Notes under the pieces: model-generated
What the model was told of the DNA's origin: nothing
Database searches by the model: none
What the model saw: the letters and a program-made list of their open reading frames with translations, nothing else
Translations under genes and position numbers: made by a program
Assembly: GCA_016928955.1 (NCBI GenBank)
Contig: JAFGJV010000004.1
Span: 259,736-323,735, forward strand
Direction of reading: 5' to 3'
Length of the DNA: 64,000 nt
Origin: Spirochaetales bacterium
Lineage (GTDB): Bacteria; Spirochaetota; Spirochaetia; Treponematales; UBA12059
Shown here: positions 30,625 through 60,923 of the stretch, in pieces
Layout: every line of letters starts with the position of its first letter
How positions within the stretch are numbered: the stretch's first letter is position 1

Positions 30625-30679
30625 AACTTGAGCGGCGCCGTCCGGGCGCGCGTCATGCCCGGAACCCGGGCACGCTGTT

Positions 30680-30708: not shown

Positions 30709-30743
30709 ACGATAACGAACGTGCCCGACATCGCCCAAGCGTA

Positions 30744-32387: not shown

Positions 32388-32390
32388 ACC

Positions 32391-33590: not shown

Positions 33591-33649
33591 CACCCGCGGC
33601 AAAACCGGAGCGGTCTGCCCGCGCGCAGGCCGGAGCGTCGGTCCTGCCG

Positions 33650-35577: not shown

Positions 35578-35587
35578 AAGCTACAAT
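35558..35587 (+). promoter_or_regulatory. Weak candidate promoter for the 1251-aa protein gene (short leader, no SD)
   Basis: TTCTCA-N18-TACAAT-N14-ATG. Confidence 0.3.
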
Positions 35588-35601
35588 CATATACGCGAAC
35601 C

Positions 35602-45165: not shown

Positions 45166-46827
45166 TCAGGCCTCAATATTGAGCGTGAGGTACTCCCAGA
45201 ATTCCTCAGGGAAGGGTTCCGGCACGGGCGGGGGAGGCGGGGGCAGGCTCGCCTGGTAGTCCCGCACTCGCACACCCCGCAGATACCGGTCTGCCACGCT
45301 GGGGAACAACTCCAGAAGGAGTTCGTCTTTCTCGTTCTGCGCAAGGCGAGCCCCGCCAGCTTCCGCGATCTCGGGATTCGGCTGCTTTTTGTACGCGCTG
45401 GTGTCGTACGGCGTCTCGTTCCGGACGCCGGCTATCCTTTCCCTGAAGGCAGGGTCTATGGGAAAGGGCGTCTTCCCGTAGGAACCCTTAACCAGCTCTA
45501 TGAAATTCTTGGACACATTCGTGTAGAAGGGCTTGCCCTGGGCCCGGTCGACCACGCAGTTGACTGCCTGCACGCCAACTATCTGGCTGGTGGGCGTAAC
45601 CAGGGGCGGCACTCCACAGTCCAAGCGTACTTGGGGCACGGCATGCAGCACCTCGTTGAGCAGATGCTCGAGCTTGGCGTCTTTGAGCTGGGCCATCATA
45701 TTGGTGTACATGCCACCGGGTATCTGGGCCTGCCGCACGATCTCGTCAGGCTCGGGGTAGTTGAACAGAGCCTCGATGCGCTGGCACAGCCTGAGAGCTT
45801 CGTCGGCTTTTCCAGCGGAAGCCGCTTCAACGGCCCCGTCCAGGAGGGCAGAAAGTTCCGGCCCCGGTTTGTACGAGACCAGGTCCACGTCCGGCGGGAG
45901 GCGCTTGTACTGGTCAAAAGACGCCAGTTCCTCCCGTATGCCCCTGAGCTCGTGGTTGACGCGGCCCACGGCTGCCCTGTCCACGCCGGTATCGATGCCC
46001 AGCCTGTCCGCCAGGAGCTGGATGATCTCGTATGCCGGCGCCGCGGGGCCACCGGAGAAATTCATGATAACGGTGTCTACAATATCAACCCCATTGACCA
46101 TGGCCATGAGCACGCTGGCCGTACCGAAGCCGGGCGTACAGTGCGTATGCAGGTCCACCGGTATGTCCAATTCGTTCTTCAGGGCCTTGATAAGCCTGGC
46201 GCTGGTAGCCGGATCGATGAGACCGGCCATATCCTTGATGGTGATCATGTCAGCGCCCAGGGCAGCCAGTTGCTTGGCCTTTTTTACAAAATACGCCACG
46301 TCAAAGATCGTGCCCGGTATGCGCCTGCCCTTGAAAAAGGCCTTGAACCTGTCACCCGTGGTAAAGTGAGGATCGACGGTATAGCACACGGCGCAGTCCG
46401 CCATGCCTCCGTTTTCCTTGACATAGTTTATGGTGGATGTCATATTGTCGATATCGTTCAGGGCATCAAACACACGCATGATGTCGATGCCCGACCGGAC
46501 GGCATTGCGACAGAAACCTTCTATTACGCTGTCCGGATAGGGGGTGTATCCAAAGAGATTGCGACCCCGGGACAGGGCAGTCAACTTGGACGAGCCCGCC
46601 ATGCCGTCACGTATGCTTTCAAGCCTGGTCCACGGGTTTTCACCAAGGTAGCGCATGACGGAATCCGGGACCGCGCCCCCCCATACTTCCATGGCGTAAA
46701 ACCCCGCCTGTTTGTACAGGGGCAACACCCGGTCGACCTGGGCTTGGGTCATCCTGGTTGCGAATTGCGACTGCTGTCCGTCCCTCAGTGTGAGATCCCG
46801 TATGCGCACCGTGGCTGGCATGTACAT
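45166..46827 (-). CDS. 5S/OadA/PycB-type carboxyltransferase subunit (HMGL-like TIM barrel) without a biotinyl domain
   Basis: IRDLTLRDGQQS, EVWGGA, DMAGL, HTHCTPG. It ends in a proline-rich linker (PPPPPPVPEP) but has no AMKM biotin motif. AGGAGG lies upstream of the ATG. Confidence 0.85.
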   Translation of the reverse strand: MYMPATVRIRDLTLRDGQQSQFATRMTQAQVDRVLPLYKQAGFYAMEVWGGAVPDSVMRYLGENPWTRLESIRDGMAGSSKLTALSRGRNLFGYTPYPDSVIEGFCRNAVRSGIDIMRVFDALNDIDNMTSTINYVKENGGMADCAVCYTVDPHFTTGDRFKAFFKGRRIPGTIFDVAYFVKKAKQLAALGADMITIKDMAGLIDPATSARLIKALKNELDIPVDLHTHCTPGFGTASVLMAMVNGVDIVDTVIMNFSGGPAAPAYEIIQLLADRLGIDTGVDRAAVGRVNHELRGIREELASFDQYKRLPPDVDLVSYKPGPELSALLDGAVEAASAGKADEALRLCQRIEALFNYPEPDEIVRQAQIPGGMYTNMMAQLKDAKLEHLLNEVLHAVPQVRLDCGVPPLVTPTSQIVGVQAVNCVVDRAQGKPFYTNVSKNFIELVKGSYGKTPFPIDPAFRERIAGVRNETPYDTSAYKKQPNPEIAEAGGARLAQNEKDELLLELFPSVADRYLRGVRVRDYQASLPPPPPPVPEPFPEEFWEYLTLNIEA

Positions 46828-46981: not shown

Positions 46982-47010
46982 TTGACACTTTTTGTAGAGT
47001 ACGATATGCT
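46982..47010 (+). promoter_or_regulatory. Candidate promoter of the kor-mcm-mmd cluster
   Basis: TTGACA-N17-TATGCT, giving a leader of about 90 nt before the ATG at 47108. The ORF-track start at 46982 is the TTG of the -35 box. Confidence 0.5.
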
Positions 47011-47107
47011 AACGCCAAGTTCCGCATTGGGCGATTCGATGCCTGTTGTGCACGGCACACTGGGCCCTCGATGCGACCCGAGCGGGCAAAACCGTGAGTG
47101 TAGGACC

Positions 47108-47380
47108 ATGAGCGAACAGAAGAAAGCCTTTGAGCACGTCATCCGGGAACGGTGGTGCAAGGGATGCAATATCTGCGTCGCCTTCTGCCCCAAGCAGGTA
47201 CTCGTTCTCCGCAACGGCAAGGTTCACGCGGCCCATCCCGATCAGTGCATCGGCTGCCGTATGTGTGAGCTGCGCTGCCCCGATTTCGCCATCGAGATCC
47301 GGGAAAAGGGTTCCGCGGAGTCCCTGGGACGGGACGCTTCGGAAGTGGACTACGCCATCAAGCCGGAGGCCCACCAATGA
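47108..47380 (+). CDS. korD: 2-oxoacid:ferredoxin oxidoreductase delta subunit (2x[4Fe-4S] ferredoxin)
   Basis: CKGCNICVAFCP and CIGCRMCELRCP. ATGA overlap with the alpha subunit gene. Confidence 0.8.
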   Translation: MSEQKKAFEHVIRERWCKGCNICVAFCPKQVLVLRNGKVHAAHPDQCIGCRMCELRCPDFAIEIREKGSAESLGRDASEVDYAIKPEAHQ

Positions 47381-48510
47381 CCCAGGCCAAGCTCATGCAG
47401 GGCAACGAGGCGTGCACGCTCGGCGCTCTGGCCGCCGGACTGGATTTCTACGCCGGTTACCCCATCACTCCATCAACCGAAATTGCCGAGCTGTGCGCCG
47501 AGGAGCTGCCAAAAGTAGGCGGAAAATTCATCCAAATGGAGGATGAGATCGGCTCCATAGCGGCCATCATCGGCGCTTCCCTGACAGGGCGCAAGGCCAT
47601 GACCGCCACCAGCGGACCTGGCTTTTCCCTCATGCAGGAGAATATCGGCTATGCCGGCATTGCCGAAGTGCCCGTGGTCATCATAGACGTCCAGCGCGTG
47701 GGCCCGTCCACCGGCCAGCCCACCTCCCCGGCCCAGGGCGACGTGATGCAGGCCCGCTGGGGCACGCACGGCGACCATCCCGTGGTAGTGCTGGCGCCAG
47801 GAAACGTAAAGGAATGCTTTGAGCTGACCGTCAAAGCCTTCAATATAGCTGAAGAATACCGCCTTCCCGTGGTGGTGCTCACCGACGAGGTGATCGGGCA
47901 CATGCGCGAGAAGGTTGTTCTGCCCGAGCTGTCCGAGCTCAAGGTTTCCAACCGCGTTCAGCCGCAAGCTCCCGGCGGCTACAAACCCTATGAGGCCGAT
48001 CTGGACGGCGGCGTGCCTCCCATGGCGCGTTTTGGCCAGGGCTACCGCTACCACGTAACGGGTTTGTTCCACGACGAGACGGGGTTCCCGTCCAACAAGG
48101 GCGATGTTACCGACCGCTTCCTCAGGCGGCTACAGCGCAAGGTGGAGAAGGCAGAACCGGCCATACGCGACTACTTTACCGAGTCCACGGACGACTGCGA
48201 CACACTGGTCGTCGCCTTTGGCTCGTCGGCCATGTCCTCCCTGTCTGCCGTGCGCCAGGCCAGGGCCGCAGGCATCAAGGCCGGCCTCTTTAGGCCCAAA
48301 ACCATATGGCCCTTCCCGGAAGAAGCGCTCCGAGAACTCGCCATGAGGGTCAAACGCATCATCGTGCCCGAGATGAACCTTGGCCAGCTCGCGCTGGAAA
48401 TCGAGCGGGTTTCCGGCTGCAAGGCTCCGGTCACCAGGGTGTCCAAGGTCAACGGAGAGCTCTTCAAGCCTGAGGAAATCCTGGCCGCCATCAGGGGAGA
48501 CGCCAAATGA
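47377..48510 (+). CDS. korA: 2-oxoglutarate/2-oxoacid:ferredoxin oxidoreductase alpha subunit
   Basis: MQGNEACTLGALAAGLDFYAGYPITPSTEI is the typical N-terminus. 377 aa. Confidence 0.9.
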   Translation: MTQAKLMQGNEACTLGALAAGLDFYAGYPITPSTEIAELCAEELPKVGGKFIQMEDEIGSIAAIIGASLTGRKAMTATSGPGFSLMQENIGYAGIAEVPVVIIDVQRVGPSTGQPTSPAQGDVMQARWGTHGDHPVVVLAPGNVKECFELTVKAFNIAEEYRLPVVVLTDEVIGHMREKVVLPELSELKVSNRVQPQAPGGYKPYEADLDGGVPPMARFGQGYRYHVTGLFHDETGFPSNKGDVTDRFLRRLQRKVEKAEPAIRDYFTESTDDCDTLVVAFGSSAMSSLSAVRQARAAGIKAGLFRPKTIWPFPEEALRELAMRVKRIIVPEMNLGQLALEIERVSGCKAPVTRVSKVNGELFKPEEILAAIRGDAK

Positions 48511-49367
48511 GCGACACGATGAAATATTTCAGGGAAAACCGCCTGCCGCATATCTGGTGTCCCGGCTGCGGCCACGGCACGGTGACCGGAGCCCTTGTGC
48601 GGGCCATAGCCAAGCTCAAGCTGGACAAGAACAAGGTCGTGGTGGTATCGGGCATAGGATGTTCCAGCCGGGCACCGGGCTACCTGGACTTTGACACCCT
48701 GCACACCACCCATGGCCGCGCACTGGCCTTTGCCACAGGCATTAAGCTGTCCAGGCCGGACCTCAAGGTCATTGTCATGACCGGCGACGGCGACGCCACG
48801 GCCATAGGCGGCAATCACTTCATACACGCGGCCAGGCGCAACATAGACATCACCACCATCGTGATGAACAACAACATATACGGTATGACCAGCGGCCAGT
48901 ACTCGCCCATGACGCCTAAGGGCATGCTCGGCACCACAGCGCCCTACGGCAACGTGGAACGCAGTTTCGACCTGGGTAAGCTGGCCATAGCGGCGGGAGC
49001 CACCTACGTGGGCCGCGCCACCAGCTACCACGTCACGGTCCTCCAGGACCTGATCGAGAAGGCCCTGCTCAACAAGGGCTTTTCCGTGGTCGAGGCCCTG
49101 ACCCAGTGCCCCACCTACATGGGCCGCAAAAACAAGCTCGGCGGCCCCGTCGAGATGCTCGAATGGTTCAAAGCCCGCGCGGTCAACATTAAGGCCGCCG
49201 CTGTCATGACGCCGGACAAGCTGGAAGGCAAATTCCTCATAGGGGAGCTGTACAACCAGCCCGAACCGGAGTACACGGCCGAATACTCGGCCATGGCCGA
49301 CCAGGTGCGGCGCAGATTTGACGCTTTCCAGGGAGGGGTACGCGGATGCGAACAGAATTCCGACTAA
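48507..49367 (+). CDS. korB: 2-oxoglutarate/2-oxoacid:ferredoxin oxidoreductase beta (TPP-binding) subunit
   Basis: WCPGCGHG, GIGCSSR, GDGD..IGGNH. Confidence 0.9.
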   Translation: MSDTMKYFRENRLPHIWCPGCGHGTVTGALVRAIAKLKLDKNKVVVVSGIGCSSRAPGYLDFDTLHTTHGRALAFATGIKLSRPDLKVIVMTGDGDATAIGGNHFIHAARRNIDITTIVMNNNIYGMTSGQYSPMTPKGMLGTTAPYGNVERSFDLGKLAIAAGATYVGRATSYHVTVLQDLIEKALLNKGFSVVEALTQCPTYMGRKNKLGGPVEMLEWFKARAVNIKAAAVMTPDKLEGKFLIGELYNQPEPEYTAEYSAMADQVRRRFDAFQGGVRGCEQNSD

Positions 49368-49876
49368 GCGGCTCTGGCGGACAGGGACTGCTCCTGGCCG
49401 GCATCGTACTGGCCGAGGCTGCCATCCTGGAAGACAAAAACGCCGTCCAGACCCAGAGCTACGGCCCCGAGGCCCGGGGCGGCGCGTCCAAGGCCGAGGT
49501 GGTCATATCCGGCGAGGATATCGACTATCCCAAGGCCACCGACCCCGACTACCTCCTGGCCCTGACCCAGGAATCGTACAGGTCGTTTGGCCCCCTCATG
49601 GGCAAGGGCACTATCATCGTCGACTCGTCCGTAGCCTTGAGCGACGATATCAAGGCTCGCACCGTGTCCGTGCCCATCCTCCAGGCAGCGGCCGATGACA
49701 TCGGCAAGAAGGTGGTGGCCAACATAGTCGCCCTGGGAGTGCTCGCCGGTGTGTCAGGCATCGTCGGCCACAAAACCCTTGAGGAAGCCGTGAAGAAACG
49801 CGTGCCCAAGGGCACGGAAGACCTCAACCTGAAAGCCCTGGCCAAGGGCTTTGAGCTGGCCTCCGCGGCCACGTGA
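49346..49876 (+). CDS. korC: 2-oxoglutarate/2-oxoacid:ferredoxin oxidoreductase gamma subunit
   Basis: FRLSGSGGQGLLLAG...QTQSYGPEARGG. Confidence 0.85.
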   Translation: MRTEFRLSGSGGQGLLLAGIVLAEAAILEDKNAVQTQSYGPEARGGASKAEVVISGEDIDYPKATDPDYLLALTQESYRSFGPLMGKGTIIVDSSVALSDDIKARTVSVPILQAAADDIGKKVVANIVALGVLAGVSGIVGHKTLEEAVKKRVPKGTEDLNLKALAKGFELASAAT

Positions 49877-49908
49877 GCCGCCCATACCCTGTACCATAGG
49901 AGAACGAC

Positions 49909-51576
49909 ATGAGCGACATGGACGCCATCCAAAAGGGCGCGGACGCGTATGACGCGGGCGTCAAGAAGAGCCTGGCCAAGTTCGCCGAGCGCAAGGAACG
50001 CTTTGTCACGGGCTCCAAAAGCCCCGTGGAGCGTCTGTACACGCCTCTCAACAACGCCGGCCAGGACTACGTCAGGGACATAGGCTTTCCGGGCGACTAT
50101 CCGTACACGCGCGGCGTCCAGAACACCATGTACCGTGGGCGCCTGTGGACCATGCGCCAGTACGCAGGTTTCTCCACCGCCGAGGAGTCGAACAAGCGCT
50201 ACAAGTTCCTCCTGGAACAGGGCACCACGGGCTTGTCCGTGGCCTTTGACCTGCCCACCCAGATAGGCTATGACTCCGACCACGCCCTGTCCCAGGGCGA
50301 GGTGGGCAAGGTGGGCGTGGCAATAGACTCGCTGGCCGACATGGAGATTCTGTTCAACGGCATACCGCTGGACAAGGTGTCCACGTCCATGACCATCAAC
50401 GCTCCGGCGTCCGTCCTCCTGGCCATGTACATAGCCGTGGCCGAGAAACAGGGCGTCAAGCCGGACCAGCTGAACGGCACTATACAGAACGACATCCTGA
50501 AGGAGTACGTGGCCCGGGGTACCTACATCTTCCCGCCAGAGCCGTCCATGCGCCTGATCACGGACATATTCGCGTACTGCTCCAAGGAAGTTCCCAACTG
50601 GAATACCATATCCATATCCGGCTACCACATACGGGAAGCCGGCGCCACCGCGGCCCAGGAAGTGGCTTTTACCATAGCCGACGGCGTTGCCTATGTGGAC
50701 GCCGCCATCAAGGCCGGCCTGGATGTTGACGACTTCGCGCCGCGGCTTTCGTTCTTCTTCAACGCCCACAACGATCTCTTTGAGGAAGTGGCCAAGTTCA
50801 GGGCAGCCCGCCGCGTGTGGGCCAAGATCATGAAGGAGCGATTTGGCGCCAAGAGCCCCAAGAGCTGGATGCTCCGCTTCCATACCCAGACCGGTGGCTC
50901 GACGCTGACCGCCCAGCAGCCCGACAACAACATCGTGCGCGTGGCCATCCAGACCCTGGCCGCCGTGCTCGGCGGCACGCAGTCGCTCCACACCAACTCC
51001 AAGGACGAGGCCCTGGCCCTGCCCACGGAGGACTCCGTCCGCATAGCCCTGCGCACCCAGCAGATCGTTGCCTACGAGTCCGGAGCGGCCGAGACCGTAG
51101 ACCCGCTGGCCGGCTCCTACTACGTGGAAAGCCTGACCGACCGCATCCAGAAGGAAGCCGAGGCGTACATAGCGCGCATCGATGACATGGGCGGCGCGGT
51201 CAAGGCCATCGAACGCGGCTACGTCCAGCAGGAAATCCAAGACGCCGCCTACGCATACCAGATGGACATAGAGTCCGGCGAGCGCGTGGTGGTCGGCATG
51301 AACAAGTTCCAGATCAAGGAAGCCCCGCCCTCAGGACTCCTCAAAGTGGATCCCAAGGTGGGGGAGGACCAGGCCAATAAACTTAGGGACCTCAAAGCCA
51401 AACGAGACAACGCCCGCGTCGCCTCGTCGCTCGAGGCCGTCAAGCTCGCGGCCACGGGCGGCGACAATCTGATGCCGCCCATCCTGGACGCTGTCCGGGC
51501 CTACGCCACCCTGGGCGAGATATGCGACGTACTCCGCGGTGTGTTCGGCGAGTACCAGCAGAAGGTCATCCTTTAA
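49909..51576 (+). CDS. Methylmalonyl-CoA mutase, catalytic (N-terminal) subunit of a split enzyme
   Basis: [40 protein letters not shown]. 555 aa with no B12 domain. Confidence 0.9.
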
Positions 51577-51632
51577 CAGGCGGTTGAACAGCATCGAGTT
51601 TTTCAACATTCTGTTATGAGAGGAACGGAAAC

Positions 51633-52034
51633 ATGGAACGGAAAATACGCGTACTGGTTGCCAAACCTGGCCTTGACGGCCATGACCGAGGCGCCAAGGT
51701 GATTGCCCGGGCCCTCCGCGACGCGGGCATGGAAGTGGTGTACACGGGCCTCAGGCAGACGCCCGAGCAGATTGTGGCTGCCGCACTGCAGGAAGACGTG
51801 GACGTGATAGCCATGAGCATATTGTCCGGCGCCCATAACCACCTGTTTCCGCGCGTCATGGATATCCTCCGCGAGAGGAATGTGCAGGATATCCTGGTCA
51901 TAGGCGGCGGGGTCATTCCGGACGACGACATACCGGCCCTCAAGGCCGCGGGCATAGCAGGCGTGTTCACGCCCGGCACGCCAACGTCGGCGACCATAGA
52001 CTTCATCAAGAACAACCTCAAGCGCAGCGTCTGA
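51633..52034 (+). CDS. Methylmalonyl-CoA mutase, B12-binding (C-terminal) subunit
   Basis: [21 protein letters not shown] carries the DxHxxG cobalamin-binding motif. Confidence 0.9.
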
Positions 52035-52039
52035 GCGCC

Positions 52040-53149
52040 ATGAGCGACGCCCTCTCCCTGGCCGACCGGGCACGAACCGGCGACGTGCGCGCCCGAGCGC
52101 GGCTCATCACGCTGATCGAGCGTGACGATCCCGAGCGGCTCGGCGCGCTGTCCGCCCTGCGGGCCAGCGCCCGGGGCTCGGCGCATGTGGTGGGCATTAC
52201 CGGCCCGCCGGGAGCCGGCAAGAGCACCCTGACGGACAAAATAGTGTCAGAGCTCAGGTCCAGGGGACGGACCGTCGCCGTTGTTGCCATAGATCCGTCC
52301 AGTCCCTTCACCGGCGGTGCCCTCCTGGGCGACCGCATACGCATGAACCGCCATGCCACGGACGAGGGCGTGTTCATACGCAGCCTGGCCACCCGCGGCC
52401 ACCTTGGAGGGCTGTCGCGCGCCACGGGCGAGACCGTGAGACTCCTTGACGCGCTGGGCTATGACGACGTCATTATAGAGACGGTGGGCGTGGGCCAGTC
52501 CGAGGTGGACATAGTCCGCCTGGCTGACACCGTTGTGCTGGTATCCGTTCCCGGCCTGGGCGACGACATACAGGCCATCAAGGCCGGCGTCATGGAGATA
52601 GGCGACGTGTTCTGCGTCAACAAGGCCGACCGGGACGGGGCGGAGCGCGTGGTTAGGGAGATACGCTCCATGCTGGAAACGGCCGTGATGAACGGGGCGG
52701 CCACGCGCTTTTCCGAGCTCTTTGCTGCCCTGGCCGACCGTAAGCAGGCCGCGCGGGAGCCAGAGAACGCTGATGCGCGCGCGCATTTCAGCCAGGGGGC
52801 GGCGCACCACATAGCGGCCGATGGCCACGGCAGCCTGGAGCTGCCGCCGGTGGTGGCCACGGTGGCCGAAACAGGGCAGGGCGTCAGGGAACTGGTGGAC
52901 CACATCAAGGCCCACGAGGCTGGACTCGAGGCCACGGGCCTTTTGGCCAAGCAGAGGCGGGCCAACCTGGCCTGGGAACTGGGTACGGAGGCGGCTGGCA
53001 GGCTGGTCGGCCTCCTCGAGCACGAGGAACGCCGCGAGGAAGTGGCAGCACTGGCCGACGCGGTGCTGGCCCGCTGCATGGATTTTCACGACGCTGTGGC
53101 CGGGGTGGAGCGATCGCTCGCCGAGGCCATACGCTCAAAGGGTAGCTGA
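52040..53149 (+). CDS. meaB: Methylmalonyl-CoA mutase-associated GTPase MeaB/ArgK
   Basis: P-loop GITGPPGAGKSTL, then ETVGVGQSE and NKAD. Confidence 0.9.
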   Translation: MSDALSLADRARTGDVRARARLITLIERDDPERLGALSALRASARGSAHVVGITGPPGAGKSTLTDKIVSELRSRGRTVAVVAIDPSSPFTGGALLGDRIRMNRHATDEGVFIRSLATRGHLGGLSRATGETVRLLDALGYDDVIIETVGVGQSEVDIVRLADTVVLVSVPGLGDDIQAIKAGVMEIGDVFCVNKADRDGAERVVREIRSMLETAVMNGAATRFSELFAALADRKQAAREPENADARAHFSQGAAHHIAADGHGSLELPPVVATVAETGQGVRELVDHIKAHEAGLEATGLLAKQRRANLAWELGTEAAGRLVGLLEHEERREEVAALADAVLARCMDFHDAVAGVERSLAEAIRSKGS

Positions 53150-53171
53150 GCTCGCACTGAGGAGGATAACG

Positions 53172-53573
53172 ATGATCGGAAAGATCGACCATATCGGCAT
53201 AGCCGTGGCCAACCTGGACCAGACCCTCAAGCTGTACACGGACGTGCTGGGCATGAGCCTGCACGGCACCGAGACGGTGGCCGACCAGAAGGTCAAGGTA
53301 GCCTTCCTGCCCCTAGGCGACTCCGAGCTTGAGCTTCTTGAGTCGACGGACCCCGAGGGGCCCATAGCCAAGTTCATTGCCGCCAAGGGCGAGGGCATAC
53401 AGCACATAGCCTTCAAGGTGGACAATATAGAGGCCGCGCTTAACGAGATGCGGGCAAAGGGAATACGCCTGATCGACGAAAAACCGAGGTACGGGGCCGG
53501 CGGCGCCAAGATCGCCTTCCTGCACCCAAAATCCACAGGCGGCGTTCTTGTGGAACTCTGCCAGCGGGACTGA
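53172..53573 (+). CDS. mce: Methylmalonyl-CoA epimerase (glyoxalase/VOC fold)
   Basis: IDHIGIAV...LELLE...GEGIQHIAFKV...AFLHPKSTGGVLVEL. GGAGGA lies upstream of the ATG at 53172; the ORF-track start at 52821 lies inside meaB. Confidence 0.9.
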   Translation: MIGKIDHIGIAVANLDQTLKLYTDVLGMSLHGTETVADQKVKVAFLPLGDSELELLESTDPEGPIAKFIAAKGEGIQHIAFKVDNIEAALNEMRAKGIRLIDEKPRYGAGGAKIAFLHPKSTGGVLVELCQRD

Positions 53574-53617
53574 CAAGGGTGACGCTCTAAAAGCCCAATG
53601 GTTCGTAGGGCGTCCCG

Positions 53618-53693
53618 GCGTTTTCGGCCGAAAACGCGATGTTTTCTAAGGAAACCCTCTAAAAACAAAGGTTTTTAGAGGCTCCCAAGGAGC
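53618..53693 (+). promoter_or_regulatory. Three inverted repeats in the 128-nt mce-mmdA spacer; the last one includes the SD
   Basis: gcgttttcgg/ccgaaaacgc at 53618-53637. AT-rich ctctaaaaac-aaag-gtttttagag at 53657-53680. gctcc-caa-ggagc at 53681-53693, overlapping AAGGAG. Confidence 0.4.
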
Positions 53694-53701
53694 TTGCCAA
53701 C

Positions 53702-55246
53702 ATGGAAGAGAAACTCAAGCAACTGAAGGAGCGCCGGGACGCGATACTCGCGGGCGGCGGCCCGAAACGCGTCCAGGCCCAGCACGACAAGGGCAAGATG
53801 ACGGCCCGCGAGCGCCTGGAAGCCTTTCTGGACCCGGGCAGCTTTGTGGAGATAGACGCCTTTGTGGAGCACCGGGCCGTTGACCTGGGCATGGACAAGG
53901 TGGACGCACCCGGCGAGGGCGTGGTCATAGGCTACGGCACCGTTGACGGCCGCCTGGTCTATGTGTTTGCCCAGGACTTCACCGTAATAGGCGGCTCCCT
54001 CGGCGAGATGCACGCGGCCAAGATATGCAAGGCCATGGACATGGCCGTCAAGGTCGGCTGCCCCTGCATAGGCATCAACGACTCCGGCGGCGCCCGCATC
54101 CAGGAGGGCGTAGACGCTTTGTCTGGCTACGGCGACATCTTCTACCGCAACACGCTGGCCTCGGGCGTCATACCGCAGATATCCGTGATCATGGGTCCCT
54201 GCGCGGGCGGCGCCGTGTACAGCCCGGCCCTGACCGACTTCACCGTGATGGTCGACAAGACCGCAAACATGTTCATCACCGGCCCCCAGGTTATCAAGGC
54301 CGTGACCGGCGAGGACGTGAGCGCCGAGGGCCTGGGCGGAGCCACCGTGCACTCGGAGATTTCCGGCTGCGCCCACCTGATGTTCGCCACCGAGGCCGAT
54401 ACCCTGGCCGGCATCCGGAAGCTCCTGTCGTACCTCCCGCAGAACAACGTGGAGGATGCCCCGCTTGCCCATACGGCCGATCCCGTGGCCCGCGAGCTTC
54501 CCGCCCTGGCGGACATCATACCTGACTCGCCCAACAAACCCTACGACATCCGCGACGTCATCAAGCAGGTGTTCGACGACGGCGACTTCTTCGAGATACA
54601 GAGCCTGTACGCCATGAACATCGTGGTAGGTTTCGCGCGCCTGGGCGGAAGGTCCGTAGGCATCGTGGCCAACCAGCCGCGCATCATGGCGGGCGTCCTG
54701 GACATCAACGCATCGGACAAGGCCAGCCGCTTCATCCGCTTCTGCGACGCCTTCAACCTGCCCCTGGTCACCTTCACGGACACCGCCGGCTACCTGCCCG
54801 GCGTGGGCCAGGAGCACGGCGGCGTCATACGCCACGGGGCCAAGCTCCTGTACGCCTATTCGGAAGCCACCGTGCCCAAGCTGACCGTGATCGTGCGCAA
54901 GGCCTACGGCGGCGCCTACATTGCCATGTGTTCCCGCCATCTGGGGGCCGACCAGGTGTTCGCCTGGCCAAGCGCCGAGATAGCCGTGATGGGCCCAGAC
55001 GGCGCTGCCAACATCATCTTCAAGAAGGACATCGACGAGGCGGCTGATCCGGCGGCAAAGCGCAAGGAAAAGATCGACGAGTACAAGCGCAACTTTGCCA
55101 ACCCGTACAAGGCGGCCGTTCGCGGCTACGTGGACGACGTCATCGATCCCGCCGACACGCGCAAGCGCCTTGCCGGCGCCCTGGCCATGCTCCTTGGCAA
55201 GCGGGAAAGCCGCCCGGCCAAGAAGCACGCCAACATGCCGGTTTGA
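53702..55246 (+). CDS. mmdA: Methylmalonyl-CoA carboxyltransferase (12S / decarboxylase alpha subunit; propionyl-CoA carboxylase-beta family)
   Basis: KGKMTARERLEAFLDPGSFVE, GGSLGE, DSGGARIQEG, DTAGYLPGVGQEHGG. Confidence 0.9.
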   Translation: MEEKLKQLKERRDAILAGGGPKRVQAQHDKGKMTARERLEAFLDPGSFVEIDAFVEHRAVDLGMDKVDAPGEGVVIGYGTVDGRLVYVFAQDFTVIGGSLGEMHAAKICKAMDMAVKVGCPCIGINDSGGARIQEGVDALSGYGDIFYRNTLASGVIPQISVIMGPCAGGAVYSPALTDFTVMVDKTANMFITGPQVIKAVTGEDVSAEGLGGATVHSEISGCAHLMFATEADTLAGIRKLLSYLPQNNVEDAPLAHTADPVARELPALADIIPDSPNKPYDIRDVIKQVFDDGDFFEIQSLYAMNIVVGFARLGGRSVGIVANQPRIMAGVLDINASDKASRFIRFCDAFNLPLVTFTDTAGYLPGVGQEHGGVIRHGAKLLYAYSEATVPKLTVIVRKAYGGAYIAMCSRHLGADQVFAWPSAEIAVMGPDGAANIIFKKDIDEAADPAAKRKEKIDEYKRNFANPYKAAVRGYVDDVIDPADTRKRLAGALAMLLGKRESRPAKKHANMPV

Positions 55247-55258
55247 CGGAGGCGCGCC

Positions 55259-55585
55259 ATGGATGTATGGACCATTACCATAGTCGGCGTGGGGACGGTA
55301 TTCCTTGCCCTGGTCGGCCTGTCCCTCATGCTCGGCATGTTCAAGCGCCTGTTCCACGGGCGTAAGGACTCGGCACCGAGCGCGGCTACCGCTGAAGCTC
55401 CCAGGCCCGCGCCTGCGCGGGCCGCGGACGGAACCCTGGTTGCCGTGATCAGCGCGGCCATAGCCGCAGCTACCGGTGGCCAGCCCGGCTCGTTCCGGGT
55501 TGTGTCCGTGCAGGCGTCCGGAGGATTCTCAACCCCCGTCTGGGGTCACATCGATAGACTGACGCGGACCGGAAGCGGCCGCTAG
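55259..55585 (+). CDS. mmdD: OadG-like small membrane subunit (decarboxylase delta/gamma-type)
   Basis: Single N-terminal TM ([25 protein letters not shown]) plus an A/P-rich tail. It sits between the alpha and biotin-carrier subunit genes. Confidence 0.7.
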
Positions 55586-55602
55586 ACGCAACGAAAGGGA
55601 GT

Positions 55603-55995
55603 ATGAACATGCTGAAGAAATATCGCGTTACCGTGAACGGCCAGGCGTACGACGTGGCCGTGGAAGAGTTGGGCTCCCAGACATCCGCTCCGGTGGCCTC
55701 GGCTCCCGCGCCCGTGGCAGCCCCGGCCGCGTCTCCCGTCCCATCGGCCCCATCGGCCCCGGCCGCCCCGAGCTCCGGCACGGCCGGCTCGGTCAAGGCT
55801 CCCATGCCGGGCACGGTGCTTGGCGTCAAGGTGGCGGCTGGCCAGCAGGTCAAGCGCGGCGACGTGCTCCTGATCCTGGAAGCCATGAAAATGGAGAACG
55901 AAATCACGTCCCCCGCGGACGGCACCGTGTCCCAGGTCCGCGTGCAGGCGGGCACCACCGTCAATACCGGCGATCCGATGATAGACATCGCCTGA
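55603..55995 (+). CDS. mmdC: Biotin carboxyl carrier subunit
   Basis: A/P-rich linker, then [15 protein letters not shown], the biotinyl-lysine motif. Confidence 0.85.
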
Positions 55996-56016
55996 AGGGG
56001 GTAACGGGTACCGCAT

Positions 56017-57177
56017 ATGTGGCAGAATATCCTGGAGTTCCTCCAGTCTACAGGTTTCGCGGCCTTCGGCAACAGCTCCATGATGGTGTTCGGCGTTATT
56101 CCCGGCGAGCTCATCATGATCGTCGTCGCCTGCGTGCTCCTGTACCTAGGCATAGCCAAAAAGTTCGAGCCCCTGCTCCTTGTGCCCATAGCCTTTGGCA
56201 TGCTGCTGGTCAACCTGCCGCTGGGCGGCGTCATGGCCGCACCGCTGGGAGACACACCCGGGGGCCTTGTGTACTACTTGTACCAGGGCGTGAAACTCGG
56301 CATATACCCGCCGCTCATCTTTATGGGCGTGGGAGCCATGACGGATTTTGGCCCGCTGATAGCGAATCCACGAAGCTTGCTGTTGGGCGCGGCCGCGCAG
56401 ATCGGAATCTTCATCACCTTCCTTGGGGCCACAGCCCTTGGCTTTGACCTGAAATCGGCGGCTAGCATAGGCATCATAGGCGGCGCGGACGGCCCGACGG
56501 CCATATTCGTCACCTCCAAGCTCAACAGGGACCTGCTCCCGGCCATCGCCATAGCGGCATACTCGTACATGGCCCTGGTGCCCATCATCCAACCGCCCAT
56601 CATGAAGCTCCTGACAACCAAAAAGGAGCGCATGGTGGTGATGGATCAGTTGCGCGACGTGTCAAAGACCGAGAAGATACTGTTTCCCATCGTCGTGACG
56701 ATTGCGTGCGGGCTGCTTCTGCCATCTGCCGTGCCGCTTTTAGGAGCGCTGATGCTCGGCAACCTGTTCCGGGAAACGGGCGTGACCGCGCGACTTTCGG
56801 ATACCTCGCAGAACGCGCTCATGAACATCCTGACCATCTTCCTGGGCGTTTCTGTGGGCGCTACCGCGGCAGCGGAACGGTTCCTCCAGATAGAGACGCT
56901 CAAGATCATCGCCCTGGGACTCGTTGCCTTTGCCATAGGAACGGCGAGCGGGGTGCTGTTCGGCAAGATCATGTACCGCACGAGCGGCGGCAAGGTGAAC
57001 CCGCTTATAGGCTCAGCCGGCGTGTCCGCAGTGCCCATGGCCGCCCGCGTATCGCAGGTTGTGGGCCAGAAGGAAAACCCCGGCAACTACCTCCTGATGC
57101 ACGCCATGGGCCCGAACGTGGCCGGAGTCATAGGAAGCGCCATAGCCGCCGGCGTTATGCTGTCCTTCCTCGGCTGA
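56017..57177 (+). CDS. mmdB: Na+-transporting decarboxylase beta subunit (OadB/MmdB/GcdB family)
   Basis: 386-aa polytopic protein with [23 protein letters not shown] and [13 protein letters not shown]. Confidence 0.9.
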
Positions 57178-57191: not shown

Positions 57192-57227
57192 AAAAAACGG
57201 CGCCCCCATTCCGGGGCGCCGTTTTTT
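57192..57227. terminator. Bidirectional rho-independent terminator closing the mmd cluster and the convergent thioesterase gene
   Basis: A6 - cggcgcccc / ggggcgccg stem (10 bp, 6-nt loop) - T6. Confidence 0.85.
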
Positions 57228-60809: not shown

Positions 60810-60887
60810 GGGGCGGGAAAAAGCTGAAAGCGGTATCGCGGCGATGGCGTACGCGGCGAGCTCCGAGTGATTTCCATCCGCCCCCGC

Positions 60888-60916
60888 TTGACACGGACAG
60901 GCCATTCGCCGGAAAT
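60888..60916 (+). promoter_or_regulatory. Candidate promoter abutting the DUF212 gene start
   Basis: TTGACA-N17-GGAAAT-N7-ATG. The -35 is perfect and the -10 is weak. Confidence 0.35.
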
Positions 60917-60923
60917 TTCAGCG

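What the first reader, a model, noticed from the sequence alone, without database searches (positions are those of the whole stretch)
46982..57177. One transcription unit joining 2-oxoacid:ferredoxin oxidoreductase to the methylmalonyl-CoA pathway and a Na+-pumping decarboxylase
Seen in the sequence: eleven same-strand CDS with ATGA overlaps (47377, 48507), a 22-nt overlap (49346) or gaps of 5-128 nt. They are preceded by TTGACA-N17-TATGCT and closed by a textbook A6-stem-T6 terminator (57192-57227).
Motif-level calls: a 2x[4Fe-4S] ferredoxin plus KorA/B/C; a split mutase (555-aa catalytic chain plus a 133-aa DxHxxG B12 chain); the MeaB P-loop GTPase; a VOC-fold epimerase; and mmdA-D-C-B (12S carboxyltransferase, OadG-like peptide, EAMKM biotin carrier, OadB-type Na+ channel subunit).
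Established knowledge: each family is well characterised. Mutase, epimerase and Mmd together make up the succinate-to-propionate route.
Inference: placing a KGOR-type enzyme in front of that route predicts 2-oxoglutarate -> succinyl-CoA (+ CO2 + reduced ferredoxin) -> (R)/(S)-methylmalonyl-CoA -> propionyl-CoA + CO2 with Na+ export. The ferredoxin could be re-oxidised by the Rnf-like gene 5.6 kb downstream, a second potential Na+ pump.
Entry steps (glutamate dehydrogenase or transaminase) and exit steps (CoA-transferase or phosphotransacylase) are not in the window. I do not know whether this exact gene order has been described, and the substrate class of KorAB cannot be read from motifs alone.
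Basis: partly seen in the sequence, partly recalled or inferred. Interest (0 to 1): 0.6.

Follow-up and report, generated by a model that had tools for sequence, protein, structure and literature searches.

The report
Spirochaete 2-oxoglutarate-to-propionyl-CoA gene cluster
An uncultured spirochaete carries twelve well-known genes in one row that could turn 2-oxoglutarate (from glutamate) into propionyl-CoA while pumping sodium; the pathway is already known, and only its packaging in one apparent operon in this bacterial group is new.

Summary
There are twelve same-strand genes, not eleven: korDABC, split mcm, meaB, mce and mmdADCB. korD starts at 47108; 46982 is the -35 box. The terminator folds as described. 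The promoter-like site recurs, in sequence or position, upstream of korD in five related spirochaete loci.

Every family call holds. The mutase carries the methylmalonyl-specific residues. KorAB scores with Kor/Oor enzymes, not Por/Vor/Ior, and has Arg where two solved 2-oxoglutarate enzymes do. MmdB keeps the Na+-pump residues.

The same order is present in six other Spirochaetota loci; one of them lacks mmdB and another carries a divergent copy. An Oscillospiraceae MAG assembled the same gene set independently. Most other kor loci lack mcm or mmd genes nearby.

It opens transcarboxylase and oxaloacetate-decarboxylase readings.

Flux direction, Kor substrate and single-transcript status cannot be settled from sequence. 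A strongly structured 128-nt gap sits before mmdA.

The route glutamate -> 2-oxoglutarate -> succinyl-CoA -> propionate has been proposed before, and kor next to methylmalonyl-CoA pathway genes has been reported in Cloacimonadota. This is a new member of a known kind, of modest interest.

The parts
45166..46827 (-). Divergently transcribed OadA / transcarboxylase-5S / PycB-type carboxyltransferase, 553 aa, with no biotinyl domain.
   Evidence: HMGL-like plus PYC_OADA domains; NF006761 scores 424 bits against a cut-off of 402. There is no MKM motif, and the protein ends after a Pro-rich tail. The best solved relatives are 2nx9 OadA, 5ks8 PycB and 1rqb 5S. The gene is conserved in the same position in L002, L003, L004 (cut by the contig end), L005, L026, L083 and L084.
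46982..47010 (+). Sigma-70-type promoter-like site, TTGACA-N17-TATGCT.
   Evidence: TTGACA-N17/18-TAnnAT lies at the equivalent place upstream of korD in L002, L003, L004 and L005, and TTTACA-N17-TACACT in L026.
47108..47380 (+). korD: 90-aa ferredoxin subunit with two [4Fe-4S] clusters.
   Evidence: Fer4_7 and Fer4_21 domains. The best NCBIfam hits are OorD and PorD_KorD, both below their cut-offs. The ATG start was read, and a 90-91 aa product is called in L001 and L002.
47377..48510 (+). korA: alpha subunit of a 2-oxoacid:ferredoxin oxidoreductase.
   Evidence: POR_N plus PFOR_II domains. NF006412 scores 574 bits against a cut-off of 411. Solved relatives: 1yd7 405 bits, 8ys5 291 bits, 6n2n 249 bits. 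The YPITP motif is present.
48507..49367 (+). korB: beta subunit that binds TPP and one [4Fe-4S] cluster.
   Evidence: TPP_enzyme_C domain. The best NCBIfam hit is the 2-oxoglutarate FOR beta model, 297 bits, below its cut-off of 364. The best solved relative is 8ys5_C. Arg55 aligns with the Arg of 6n2n_B and 8ys5_C and with Lys49-beta of StOFOR. The cluster cysteines are present.
49346..49876 (+). korC: gamma subunit.
   Evidence: POR domain. NF006323 scores 201 bits, below its cut-off of 235. The same 22-nt overlap with korB is seen in L002, L083 and L084.
49909..51576 (+). Methylmalonyl-CoA mutase catalytic chain, 555 aa.
   Evidence: MM_CoA_mutase domain, 785 bits; TIGR00641, 837 bits. Tyr85, Ala112, Arg203 and His240 correspond to P. 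shermanii Tyr89, Ala, Arg207 and His244.
51633..52034 (+). Mutase B12-binding chain, 133 aa.
   Evidence: TIGR00640 scores 174 bits against a cut-off of 57. The DGHDRG motif is present.
52040..53149 (+). MeaB G-protein chaperone of the mutase.
   Evidence: TIGR00750 scores 328 bits against a cut-off of 241. The P-loop GPPGAGKST is present.
53172..53573 (+). Methylmalonyl-CoA epimerase, 133 aa.
   Evidence: TIGR03081 scores 167 bits against a cut-off of 115. The start codon and ribosome-binding site were read.
53574..53701 (+). Structured intercistronic spacer with several hairpins. One is terminator-like (53618-53637, followed by GAUGUUUUCU).
   Evidence: Minimum free energy -54.4 kcal/mol, z = -4.9, with 0 of 200 shuffles as stable. 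The terminator scan lists it. The sequence is not conserved: the spacer is 14 nt in L026, 22 nt in L019 and 130-352 nt in L002, L003 and L004.
53702..55246 (+). mmdA: carboxyltransferase specific for methylmalonyl-CoA/propionyl-CoA (12S/PccB type).
   Evidence: Carboxyl_trans domain, 695 bits. TIGR01117 scores 886 bits, below its cut-off of 999. Solved relatives: 1vrg 756 bits, 1on3 (12S) 670 bits.
55259..55585 (+). mmdD: OadG-like membrane anchor peptide.
   Evidence: PF04277 scores 56.8 bits against a cut-off of 27.
55603..55995 (+). mmdC: biotin carrier.
   Evidence: Biotin_lipoyl domain. NF047903 (MmdC) scores 137 bits, below its cut-off of 200. The EAMKM motif is present.
56017..57177 (+). 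mmdB: Na+-translocating carboxybiotin decarboxylase beta subunit.
   Evidence: TIGR01109 scores 508 bits against a cut-off of 191. In the alignment to 6iva OadB, Asp203, Tyr229, Asn373, Gly377, Ser382 and Arg389 are all conserved.
57192..57227 (+). Intrinsic terminator that could act in both directions: A6, 9-bp GC stem, T6.
   Evidence: z = -5.3.
62809..64000 (+). RnfC-like gene, cut off by the window end. It is context only and not part of the cluster.
   Evidence: RnfC_N, Complex1_51K (at threshold) and SLBB domains. TIGR01945 scores 182 bits, below its cut-off of 246, on a partial protein.

Best explanation
This is a vertically inherited catabolic locus of a high-GC, Treponematales/Rectinemataceae-like spirochaete MAG.

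A conserved sigma-70 promoter precedes twelve tightly packed genes. Together they encode a module centred on succinyl-CoA:
1. A four-subunit Kor/Oor-type 2-oxoacid:ferredoxin oxidoreductase (delta-alpha-beta-gamma, three [4Fe-4S] clusters, TPP) oxidatively decarboxylates 2-oxoglutarate to succinyl-CoA and reduces ferredoxin.
2. A split B12-dependent methylmalonyl-CoA mutase, served by MeaB, converts succinyl-CoA to (R)-methylmalonyl-CoA.
3. The epimerase makes the (S)-form.
4. The MmdADCB complex transfers the carboxyl group to biotin on MmdC. MmdB then decarboxylates carboxybiotin while exporting Na+, leaving propionyl-CoA.

The most likely physiological use is fermentation of glutamate-family amino acids to propionate by a peptide- and necromass-fermenting anaerobe.

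A conserved, divergently transcribed, biotin-less OadA/5S-type carboxyltransferase probably uses the same biotin carrier. It would add either an oxaloacetate-decarboxylase or a methylmalonyl-CoA:pyruvate transcarboxylase activity.

Shown: gene content, order, family membership, catalytic and specificity residues, conservation of the cluster and of its promoter.

Inferred: the Kor substrate, the direction of flux, co-transcription, sharing of MmdC, and the link to Rnf.
For: - Family assignments, several above curated cut-offs.
- Methylmalonyl-type residues in the mutase.
- KorAB lies in the Kor/Oor clade and has Arg55-beta, as the two solved 2-oxoglutarate enzymes do (PMC5020499).
- MmdB keeps every residue aligned with Asp203, Tyr229, Asn373, Gly377, Ser382 and Arg389 of OadB.
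- Overlapping or closely spaced genes, a flanking promoter and a terminator.
- The promoter is conserved across relatives.
- The same gene order occurs in L002, L026, L083 and L084, in L004 with a divergent MmdB, and in L003 without mmdB. KorA identity to the window is 72-84%.
- An Oscillospiraceae MAG independently assembled korDABC-mce-mmdADCB-mutAB.
- Only 8 of 44 kor loci with at least 7 kb of downstream sequence have any mcm or mmd gene nearby, so the linkage is specific rather than generic.
- No CoA-transferase or succinyl-CoA synthetase gene is in the operon, which leaves Kor as the only encoded source of succinyl-CoA.
- An IclR-type regulator, typical of substrate-inducible catabolic operons (my knowledge), sits at the locus in three relatives.
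- The same route was proposed for P. faecium from expression data (PMC7568257).
- The cultured family member Rectinema cohabitans expresses glutamate dehydrogenase and peptide transporters (PMC6052044).
Against: - Kor reactions are reversible, and the substrate cannot be read from sequence. KorB, KorC and KorD all fall below the curated cut-offs of the specific 2-oxoglutarate models.
- The Sulfolobus relatives in the same clade also use pyruvate (PMC5020499).
- The window contains no glutamate dehydrogenase, transaminase, phosphotransacylase, kinase or CoA-transferase gene.
- The conserved 5S-like gene, together with L003 lacking mmdB in the cluster, favours a transcarboxylase reading in at least some relatives.
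- The structured 128-nt spacer with a terminator-like hairpin may uncouple mmdADCB from the upstream genes.
- For Cloacimonadota the opposite direction, succinyl-CoA to 2-oxoglutarate, has been proposed for a similar linkage (PMC13082233).
Confidence: 0.5

Rival explanations
1. This is a succinate-pathway (Wood-Werkman-type) propionate fermentation of sugars or lactate. MmdA (12S), MmdC (1.3S) and the divergent 5S-like protein form a methylmalonyl-CoA:pyruvate transcarboxylase, and MmdB/MmdD give an optional Na+-pumping outlet. Succinyl-CoA arrives from succinate through a CoA-transferase encoded elsewhere. Kor runs reductively as an anabolic branch (succinyl-CoA + CO2 + reduced ferredoxin to 2-oxoglutarate to glutamate), as in Bacteroides and rumen anaerobes.
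For: - The biotin-less 5S/OadA-like gene is conserved in every spirochaete locus that has upstream sequence.
- It matches transcarboxylase 5S (1rqb) at 232 bits, and MmdA matches 12S (1on3) at 670 bits.
- L003 keeps 5S, 12S, an MmdD-like peptide and 1.3S, but has no mmdB in the cluster.
- Reductive synthesis of 2-oxoglutarate from succinyl-CoA is documented in Bacteroides (reviewed in PMC11304471).
- Pyruvate phosphate dikinase is in the window at 26646-29309.
Against: - An anabolic side branch would be an odd occupant of the first four, translationally coupled positions of a catabolic operon.
- The window and the 10-kb flanks of six relatives hold no fumarate reductase, fumarase, malate dehydrogenase or CoA-transferase gene.
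- MmdB with intact pump residues is kept in most relatives.
- The Oscillospiraceae cluster has kor and mmdB but no 5S gene.
Confidence: 0.25
2. The pathway runs in reverse. Propionyl-CoA is carboxylated, either by Na+-gradient-driven Mmd or by transcarboxylation from oxaloacetate, then converted to succinyl-CoA and reductively carboxylated by Kor to 2-oxoglutarate. This would serve propionate assimilation or syntrophic propionate oxidation, as recently proposed for Cloacimonadota.
For: - PMC13082233 reports kor next to mce in Cloacimonadota and proposes succinyl-CoA to 2-oxoglutarate.
- All enzymes involved are reversible in principle (established knowledge).
- A 5S-like transcarboxylase subunit is present, as in the mmc clusters of syntrophic propionate oxidisers (PMC6046458).
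Against: - No propionate activation gene, and no succinate dehydrogenase, fumarase or malate dehydrogenase gene, is in the cluster or its flanks. The Pelotomaculum mmc cluster does carry such genes.
- Driving Mmd backwards costs Na+-motive force.
- No biotin carboxylase (ATP-dependent carboxylation) is encoded in the cluster.
- Rectinema-type spirochaetes are described as fermenters of peptides and sugars (PMC6052044).
Confidence: 0.1
3. The oxidoreductase is not specific for 2-oxoglutarate. It oxidises pyruvate or 2-oxobutyrate, or is a broad-range OFOR, like the 'Por' inside the Pelotomaculum mmc cluster. It would then supply acetyl-CoA or propionyl-CoA and reduced ferredoxin rather than succinyl-CoA.
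For: - Only the generic alpha-subunit model is passed. The Oor/Kor-specific models for alpha, beta, gamma and delta are all missed.
- The Pelotomaculum mmc cluster contains an OFOR assigned to pyruvate.
- A B. fragilis kor2 mutant was not rescued by glutamate, which points to other roles for Kor-like enzymes (PMC11304471).
Against: - Scores against the PorA, PorB, Vor and Ior models are 4-6 times lower than against the Kor/Oor models.
- Arg55-beta matches the two solved 2-oxoglutarate enzymes, whereas D. africanus PFOR has Ile there (PMC5020499).
- kor is repeatedly and independently linked to mcm, whose substrate is succinyl-CoA.
Confidence: 0.1
4. The locus is not one transcription unit. korDABC-mcm-meaB-mce and mmdADCB are separated by partial termination, processing or an internal promoter in the 128-nt spacer. 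The two halves would then be expressed at different levels or under different conditions. This is independent of the metabolic readings above.
For: - The spacer is far more structured than shuffled controls (z = -4.9) and includes an 8-bp stem followed by a U-rich tail.
- The spacer varies from 14 to 352 nt among relatives and is AT-rich in L004.
Against: - No promoter-like site lies in the spacer.
- The U-tract is weak (GAUGUUUUCU).
- The spacer is only 14 nt in L026 and 22 nt in L019, so co-transcription is the default in those relatives.
- The only strong terminator lies after mmdB.
Confidence: 0.3

Closest known systems
Na+-translocating methylmalonyl-CoA decarboxylase, mmdADCB of Propionigenium modestum (and mmdADECB of Veillonella parvula)
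   Same: The subunit set and the A-D-C-B gene order match. The order in P. modestum is from my knowledge of the literature. There is a carboxyltransferase, an OadG-like anchor, an EAMKM biotin carrier, and an OadB-type pump subunit with all aligned Na+-pathway residues.
   Different: Here the four genes sit at the end of a longer row behind kor, mcm, meaB and mce, and next to a biotin-less OadA/5S-like gene. MmdA and MmdC fall below the NCBIfam equivalog or subfamily cut-offs. No MmdE was seen.
mmc gene cluster of Pelotomaculum thermopropionicum (PTH_1356-1369)
   Same: It is one large cluster that joins a 2-oxoacid:ferredoxin oxidoreductase to the epimerase, the mutase and a biotin carboxyltransferase system of the methylmalonyl-CoA pathway (PMC6046458).
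   Different: The Pelotomaculum cluster has a transcarboxylase without a pump subunit. It also carries succinyl-CoA synthetase, fumarase and malate dehydrogenase, and its OFOR is assigned to pyruvate. It serves syntrophic propionate oxidation. The spirochaete cluster has MmdB and MmdD and none of the C4-dicarboxylate enzymes.
kor-mce linkage and the proposed variant methylmalonyl-CoA pathway in Candidatus Cloacimonadota (ISME J 2026, PMC13082233)
   Same: Kor is encoded next to methylmalonyl-CoA pathway genes, an Mmd Na+ pump is present, and Kor is proposed to connect succinyl-CoA with 2-oxoglutarate and glutamate.
   Different: It is a different phylum, and the authors propose the opposite direction (propionate to succinyl-CoA to 2-oxoglutarate). 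I did not inspect their gene order. The window's full 12-gene colinear arrangement with the mutase and MeaB is not described there.
Four-subunit 2-oxoglutarate:ferredoxin oxidoreductases (OorDABC/KorDABC type; solved examples 8ys5/8ys6, and the two-subunit Magnetococcus OGOR 6n2n)
   Same: The delta-alpha-beta-gamma subunit architecture, the YPITP motif, the beta-subunit cluster cysteines and a conserved Arg at the distal-carboxylate position all match.
   Different: The enzyme is below the curated cut-offs of the OorA, OorB, OorC and OorD models. Its closest solved alpha chain is the uncharacterised Pyrococcus furiosus 1yd7. Its substrate is untested.
Glutamate to propionate by direct oxidation via succinyl-CoA and methylmalonyl-CoA
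   Same: The sequence of reactions is the one the cluster encodes. It was proposed for Phascolarctobacterium faecium, where korDABC and glutamate dehydrogenase are up-regulated (PMC7568257). From my memory only, not checked here, it was also shown physiologically in amino-acid-fermenting anaerobes such as Thermanaerovibrio acidaminovorans.
   Different: In P. faecium the paper lists korDABC as a four-gene cluster of its own and does not report it joined to mmc genes. The gene layout in the other organisms I did not check. Here all steps from 2-oxoglutarate to propionyl-CoA are contiguous.
Transcarboxylase of Propionibacterium (12S, 5S, 1.3S), and oxaloacetate decarboxylases with a separate biotin carrier (Archaeoglobus type, from my knowledge)
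   Same: A biotin-less 5S/OadA-type carboxyltransferase, a 12S-type carboxyltransferase and a small biotin carrier are all present at the locus.
   Different: The 5S-like gene is on the opposite strand, outside the operon. A membrane pump subunit is also present. No complex has been shown.

Membership tests
2-oxoglutarate:ferredoxin oxidoreductase (KorDABC/OorDABC type) | Four subunits: alpha (POR_N + PFOR_II), beta (TPP-binding), gamma (POR domain), delta (two [4Fe-4S] clusters) | tested here: met
   Pfam hits for all four subunits, with adjacent and overlapping genes.
2-oxoglutarate:ferredoxin oxidoreductase (KorDABC/OorDABC type) | Cofactor and cluster motifs: YPITP in alpha; CxxC, GCS and CP cysteines in beta; two CxxCxxCxxxCP motifs in delta | tested here: met
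   Read directly in the alignments and sequence.
2-oxoglutarate:ferredoxin oxidoreductase (KorDABC/OorDABC type) | Groups with Kor/Oor enzymes rather than Por, Vor or Ior enzymes | tested here: met
   KorA scores 574 bits (generic Kor-type model, passing) and 408 (OorA), against 97 (PorA), 92 (VorA) and 65 (Ior). KorB scores 297 (2-oxoglutarate FOR beta) against 57 (PorB). This compares HMM scores and is not a phylogeny.
2-oxoglutarate:ferredoxin oxidoreductase (KorDABC/OorDABC type) | Passes the curated equivalog cut-offs of the 2-oxoglutarate-specific models | tested here: not met
   OorA scores 408 against a cut-off of 579, KorB 297 against 364, OorC 105 against 216, and OorD 57 against 93.
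2-oxoglutarate:ferredoxin oxidoreductase (KorDABC/OorDABC type) | Basic residue in the beta subunit for the distal carboxylate of 2-oxoglutarate | tested here: met
   Arg55 aligns with Arg in 6n2n_B and 8ys5_C and with Lys49-beta of StOFOR, whose K49I mutant loses 2-oxoglutarate activity (PMC5020499). This is suggestive only, because the K49R mutant of StOFOR preferred pyruvate.
2-oxoglutarate:ferredoxin oxidoreductase (KorDABC/OorDABC type) | Measured preference for 2-oxoglutarate over other 2-oxoacids | not testable with these tools
   This needs an enzyme assay.
Methylmalonyl-CoA mutase (B12-dependent, split type) | Substrate-carboxylate residues Tyr89 and Arg207 and catalytic His244 (P. 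shermanii numbering) | tested here: met
   Tyr85, Arg203 and His240 align with those residues. The Y89F (5req) and H244A (1e1c) mutant chains in the PDB mark the columns.
Methylmalonyl-CoA mutase (B12-dependent, split type) | Absence of the 2-hydroxyisobutyryl- and isobutyryl-CoA mutase signatures (Ile/Phe for Tyr89, Gln for Arg207, Asp117 of HCM) | tested here: met
   In the same alignment 4r3u shows Ile, Gln and Asp where the window protein has Tyr, Arg and Ala. This holds even though 4r3u is the best-scoring chain overall.
Methylmalonyl-CoA mutase (B12-dependent, split type) | B12-binding chain with DxHxxG, and an adjacent MeaB chaperone | tested here: met
   TIGR00640 scores 174 bits and the DGHDRG motif is present. 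MeaB TIGR00750 scores 328 bits against a cut-off of 241.
Methylmalonyl-CoA mutase (B12-dependent, split type) | Distinction from ethylmalonyl-CoA mutase | not tested
   No ECM reference sequence was compared. Only context (mce and mmdA adjacent) argues for methylmalonyl-CoA.
Methylmalonyl-CoA epimerase | VOC-fold protein that passes the equivalog model | tested here: met
   TIGR03081 scores 167 bits against a cut-off of 115.
Na+-translocating methylmalonyl-CoA decarboxylase (MmdADCB) | OadB-family beta subunit with the residues implicated in Na+ translocation | tested here: met
   TIGR01109 scores 508 bits against a cut-off of 191. Asp203, Tyr229, Asn373, Gly377, Ser382 and Arg389 of 6iva are conserved. 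The functional role of these residues is from my knowledge of OadB mutagenesis.
Na+-translocating methylmalonyl-CoA decarboxylase (MmdADCB) | Carboxyltransferase alpha subunit that passes the mmdA model | tested here: inconclusive
   TIGR01117 aligns end to end at 886 bits, below its cut-off of 999. PccB and 12S chains score equally well.
Na+-translocating methylmalonyl-CoA decarboxylase (MmdADCB) | Separate biotin carrier with the biotinyl-lysine motif, and an OadG-like delta subunit | tested here: met
   EAMKM is present in a 130-aa Biotin_lipoyl protein, although the MmdC equivalog model scores 137 against a cut-off of 200. PF04277 scores 56.8 against a cut-off of 27.
Na+-translocating methylmalonyl-CoA decarboxylase (MmdADCB) | Na+-dependent decarboxylation in membranes | not testable with these tools
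   This needs vesicle assays.
Methylmalonyl-CoA:pyruvate transcarboxylase (12S/5S/1.3S) | A 5S-type pyruvate/oxaloacetate carboxyltransferase without a biotin domain, a 12S-type carboxyltransferase and a small biotin carrier, all at one locus | tested here: met
   L003 has these but no mmdB in the cluster.
Methylmalonyl-CoA:pyruvate transcarboxylase (12S/5S/1.3S) | Physical 12S-5S-1.3S complex and transcarboxylase activity | not testable with these tools
   This needs biochemistry.
Operon (single transcription unit) | Same strand, short or overlapping junctions, one upstream promoter, one downstream terminator, and order conserved in relatives | tested here: met
Operon (single transcription unit) | Continuous transcript across all junctions | not testable with these tools
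   The structured 128-nt mce-mmdA spacer leaves this open.

The most novel reading that the evidence does not exclude
The locus may encode a modular biotin machine. One carrier (MmdC) and one Na+-pumping membrane core (MmdB/MmdD) would be served by two interchangeable carboxyltransferase heads: MmdA for methylmalonyl-CoA and the biotin-less OadA/5S-like protein for oxaloacetate. The same parts could then act as methylmalonyl-CoA decarboxylase, as oxaloacetate decarboxylase or as a soluble transcarboxylase. Because kor is joined to this machine in one regulon, both glutamate-derived (C5) and aspartate-derived (C4) carbon would end in Na+-motive decarboxylation. That would be a compact energy-conserving scheme for amino-acid fermentation, not yet described in Spirochaetota.
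Probability: 0.15. Interest if true: 0.55.

Novelty: new member of a known kind. Interest (0 to 1): 0.3.

Why it matters
Rectinema- and Treponematales-like spirochaetes are common, mostly uncultured fermenters in aquifers, digesters and dechlorinating consortia. The main genome paper on the cultured member of the group says nothing about propionate or the methylmalonyl-CoA pathway (PMC6052044).

If the operon works as proposed, these organisms could make propionate from glutamate-family amino acids. They would conserve energy at the Mmd step, and perhaps a second time at Rnf.

The colinear cluster is also a convenient, self-contained target for heterologous expression of a route from 2-oxoglutarate to propionyl-CoA.

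It does not overturn current understanding. Every enzyme family is well characterised, and the pathway has been proposed before.

Tried and rejected
- Rfam scan of the whole window at gathering thresholds found no riboswitch or other RNA family. In particular there is no cobalamin riboswitch ahead of the B12-dependent genes.
- The korD leader (47011-47107) is only weakly more structured than shuffled sequence (z = -2.0). I did not treat it as a regulatory RNA.
- I tried twice to read the Magnetococcus OGOR structure paper for its specificity residues; it is not held. I used the Sulfolobus OFOR paper and alignments to 6n2n and 8ys5 instead.
- I considered that the mutase might be a 2-hydroxyisobutyryl-CoA mutase, because 4r3u is the top solved hit. 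I rejected this on active-site residues.
- I considered the promoter match to be chance (2 found, 3.2 expected). Comparison with relatives reversed that view.
- I looked for conserved catabolic neighbours in the 10-kb flanks of L002, L003, L004, L026, L083 and L084: glutamate dehydrogenase, CoA-transferase, phosphotransacylase/kinase, fumarate reductase. None was found. The flanks hold housekeeping genes (MetRS, FemAB, oligopeptidase, HflKC) and variable genes.
- A candidate IclR operator palindrome (ATTCCG-N5-CGGAAT) occurs in L002 only, so I dropped it.
- Literature searches for a description of this cluster in Spirochaetota or Rectinema found none. The library is incomplete, so this is not proof of absence.
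The counts are therefore a sample, not a census.

Full report
**Source organism.** The window is 62-64% G+C. Its KorA is 100% identical to a protein that NCBI holds as 'MAG: Spirochaetales bacterium'. The next relatives, at 72-88% identity, come from Spirochaetes, Treponema and Rectinemataceae MAGs. A 894-aa GreA fusion typical of spirochaetes also lies in the window. The locus therefore belongs to an uncultured, Treponematales/Rectinemataceae-like spirochaete.

**Observation.**
- korA/korD and korB/korA overlap by ATGA at 47377 and 48507.
- korC overlaps korB by 22 nt at 49346.
- The remaining gaps are 32, 56, 5, 22, 128, 12, 17 and 21 nt.

Three corrections are needed.
- The list contains twelve genes, not eleven.
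- Coordinate 46982 is the TTGACA hexamer, which is also a mechanical TTG ORF start. The ferredoxin gene begins at ATG 47108 and encodes 90 aa, the size called in related contigs.
- mce begins at ATG 53172, behind a GAGGAGGA ribosome-binding site.

The terminator at 57192-57227 is as described and folds far better than shuffled sequence (z = -5.3).

The promoter-like match is not significant on its own: 2 found against 3.2 expected. However, TTGACA-N17/18-TAnnAT recurs 100-160 nt upstream of korD in L002, L003, L004 and L005, and a weaker TTTACA-N17-TACACT in L026, inside spacers that otherwise do not align. I take this as good evidence for a real promoter.

**Gene identities.** Pfam and NCBIfam confirm every call.
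- The oxidoreductase has the full delta-alpha-beta-gamma set with the expected cofactor motifs.
- MeaB, the epimerase, the B12 chain, MmdB and KorA (generic Kor-type alpha model) pass curated cut-offs.
- KorB, KorC, KorD, MmdA and MmdC have the right best hits but fall below the cut-offs of the specific models.
- MmdB aligns with the solved OadB (6iva) and keeps Asp203, Tyr229, Asn373, Gly377, Ser382 and Arg389.
- The A-D-C-B order is that of Propionigenium modestum (my knowledge of the literature).

*Mutase.* The best-scoring solved chain is 2-hydroxyisobutyryl-CoA mutase (4r3u, 583 bits), ahead of P. shermanii MCM (1req, 530 bits). This reflects the shared split architecture and not the substrate. 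The PDB mutant chains 5req (Y89F) and 1e1c (H244A) mark the key columns. At those columns the window protein has Tyr85, Arg203 and His240, like MCM. It has Ala112 where HCM has Asp117. HCM itself shows Ile, Gln and Asp at these positions. Ethylmalonyl-CoA mutase was not compared.

*Kor.* HMM scores place KorA and KorB with Kor/Oor-type enzymes and far from Por, Vor and Ior. The nearest solved chains are a Pyrococcus 2-ketoacid enzyme (1yd7), a 2-oxoglutarate synthase (8ys5) and Magnetococcus OGOR (6n2n). KorB Arg55 aligns with Arg in both 2-oxoglutarate enzymes and with Lys49-beta of the Sulfolobus OFOR. Replacing that lysine by Ile abolishes 2-oxoglutarate activity, and D. africanus PFOR has Ile there (PMC5020499). 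This is supportive but not decisive. The specific Oor models are not passed, and Sulfolobus enzymes of the same clade also use pyruvate.

**Conservation.** A capped scan of GTDB species genomes with a KorA alignment returned 80 loci from many phyla. tblastn with the window proteins gave the following picture.
- All four Spirochaetota loci with enough sequence carry the mcm and mmd genes behind kor. The only other Spirochaetota locus returned, L005, ends 188 nt after korA.
- Among 44 loci with at least 7 kb downstream, only 8 have any mcm or mmd gene nearby.

Two closer relatives (84% and 80% KorA identity) show the identical 12-gene order and the same wider neighbourhood: MetRS, FemAB, oligopeptidase on one side and HflC/K on the other. 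The locus is therefore stably inherited in this lineage.

An Oscillospiraceae MAG from a Hadza gut sample has korDABC-mce-mmdA-D-C-B-mutA-mutB. The gene set is the same, but the order differs and the mutase is of the heterodimeric type. This is an independent assembly. Recurrent linkage of kor with mcm is the best available argument that succinyl-CoA is the shared metabolite.

*A conserved divergent gene.* Directly upstream and divergent (45166-46827) lies a 553-aa OadA / PycB / transcarboxylase-5S-type carboxyltransferase. It has no biotinyl domain and no MKM motif. It is conserved at that position in every spirochaete locus with upstream sequence, sometimes with an IclR-type regulator between it and korD. 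Together with MmdA (12S-like) and MmdC (1.3S-like) it completes a transcarboxylase set. Together with MmdB, MmdD and MmdC it could instead form an oxaloacetate decarboxylase with a separate carrier.

In the Rectinemataceae representative L003, the cluster ends after mmdC. No mmdB match was found anywhere in the 17.4-kb stretch held for that locus, and the next gene is a convergent hydrogenase-like chemoreceptor. An MmdD-like peptide is still there. Na+-pumping decarboxylation is therefore not the only output compatible with the locus.

*A structured spacer.* The 128-nt mce-mmdA spacer is strongly structured (z = -4.9) and contains a terminator-like hairpin. Its length ranges from 14 to 352 nt among relatives, and its sequence is not conserved. 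Co-transcription is likely, but attenuation or processing at this point cannot be excluded.

**Context.**
- An RnfC-like gene begins at 62809 and is cut by the window end. The other rnf genes cannot be seen. Opposite-strand hflKC and a pseudouridine synthase gene lie in between, so the link to Rnf is only a plausible idea.
- No Rfam family was found, and no B12 riboswitch.

**Mechanism.** Kor makes succinyl-CoA from 2-oxoglutarate. The mutase with MeaB and the epimerase convert it to (S)-methylmalonyl-CoA. Mmd decarboxylates that to propionyl-CoA and exports Na+. Four points favour this reading:
- Kor is the only source of succinyl-CoA encoded in the operon.
- It occupies the first, translationally coupled positions.
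- An IclR-type regulator accompanies the locus in relatives.
- The lineage is known for peptide and necromass fermentation (PMC6052044).

I put this reading at about 0.5. The rivals are:
- a Wood-Werkman-type fermentation with Kor as an anabolic branch (0.25);
- the reverse direction, as proposed for Cloacimonadota (0.1);
- a different Kor substrate (0.1).

Whether the twelve genes form one transcript is a separate question. I give about 0.3 to a functional break before mmdA.

**Comparison with the literature.**
- The Pelotomaculum mmc cluster already joins an OFOR to the epimerase, the mutase and a transcarboxylase (PMC6046458).
- A 2026 study reports kor beside mce, and clusters containing Mmd, in Cloacimonadota. 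It proposes a succinyl-CoA/2-oxoglutarate link (PMC13082233).
- The route glutamate to 2-oxoglutarate to succinyl-CoA to propionate through korDABC was proposed for Phascolarctobacterium faecium (PMC7568257).
- I found no description of this cluster in Spirochaetota.

**Verdict.** This is a real, conserved and neatly organised cluster of ordinary enzymes. It is a new member of a known kind of cluster, in a phylum where it has not been discussed. The extra carboxyltransferase deserves a biochemical look. Interest is modest (0.3).

Noticed in passing
L003:15242-17335 (-): A 697-aa protein combines two 4Fe-4S motifs, an [FeFe]-hydrogenase large-subunit domain and a methyl-accepting chemotaxis signalling domain. 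It looks like a hydrogenase-like chemoreceptor. It sits convergent to mmdC, exactly where mmdB lies in the other spirochaete loci.
   Followed up: no
L002:8403-9134, L003:4929-5660, L083:8576-9304 (all -): An IclR-family regulator lies between the OadA/5S-like gene and korD in three relatives. It is absent from the window, L026 and L084. A palindrome ATTCCG-N5-CGGAAT near it occurs only in L002.
   Followed up: partly
window 61410-62822 (+): A 470-aa ORF with no Pfam or NCBIfam hit follows a DUF212/PAP2-like gene (60867-61403) and overlaps the start of the RnfC-like gene by 14 nt. It may be co-transcribed with rnf.
   Followed up: no
window 35569-39357 (+), 31269-33602 (-), 29434-30753 (-), 34609-35577 (-): Several long ORFs have no family hit. 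In DNA of 63% G+C some may be shadow ORFs rather than genes.
   Followed up: no
window 17606-20290 (-): An 894-aa GreA fusion protein (NF011309, 1045 bits), an architecture typical of spirochaetes. It supports the taxonomic assignment.
   Followed up: no
L019:9796-11382 (+): In the Oscillospiraceae cluster MmdB is 528 aa, about 150 aa longer than the OAD_beta profile, which implies a large insertion.
   Followed up: no
window 52040-53149 (+): MeaB is 369 aa and aligns to the MeaB profile with about 40 extra residues in the region 212-290. It is also the least conserved protein of the cluster among relatives (50-60% identity, against 72-82% for its neighbours).
   Followed up: no
L004:10255-11538 (+): In the Treponema sp. 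locus the OadB-family subunit is only 31% identical to the window's MmdB, while the other cluster proteins are 49-79% identical. This suggests replacement of the pump subunit in that lineage.
   Followed up: no
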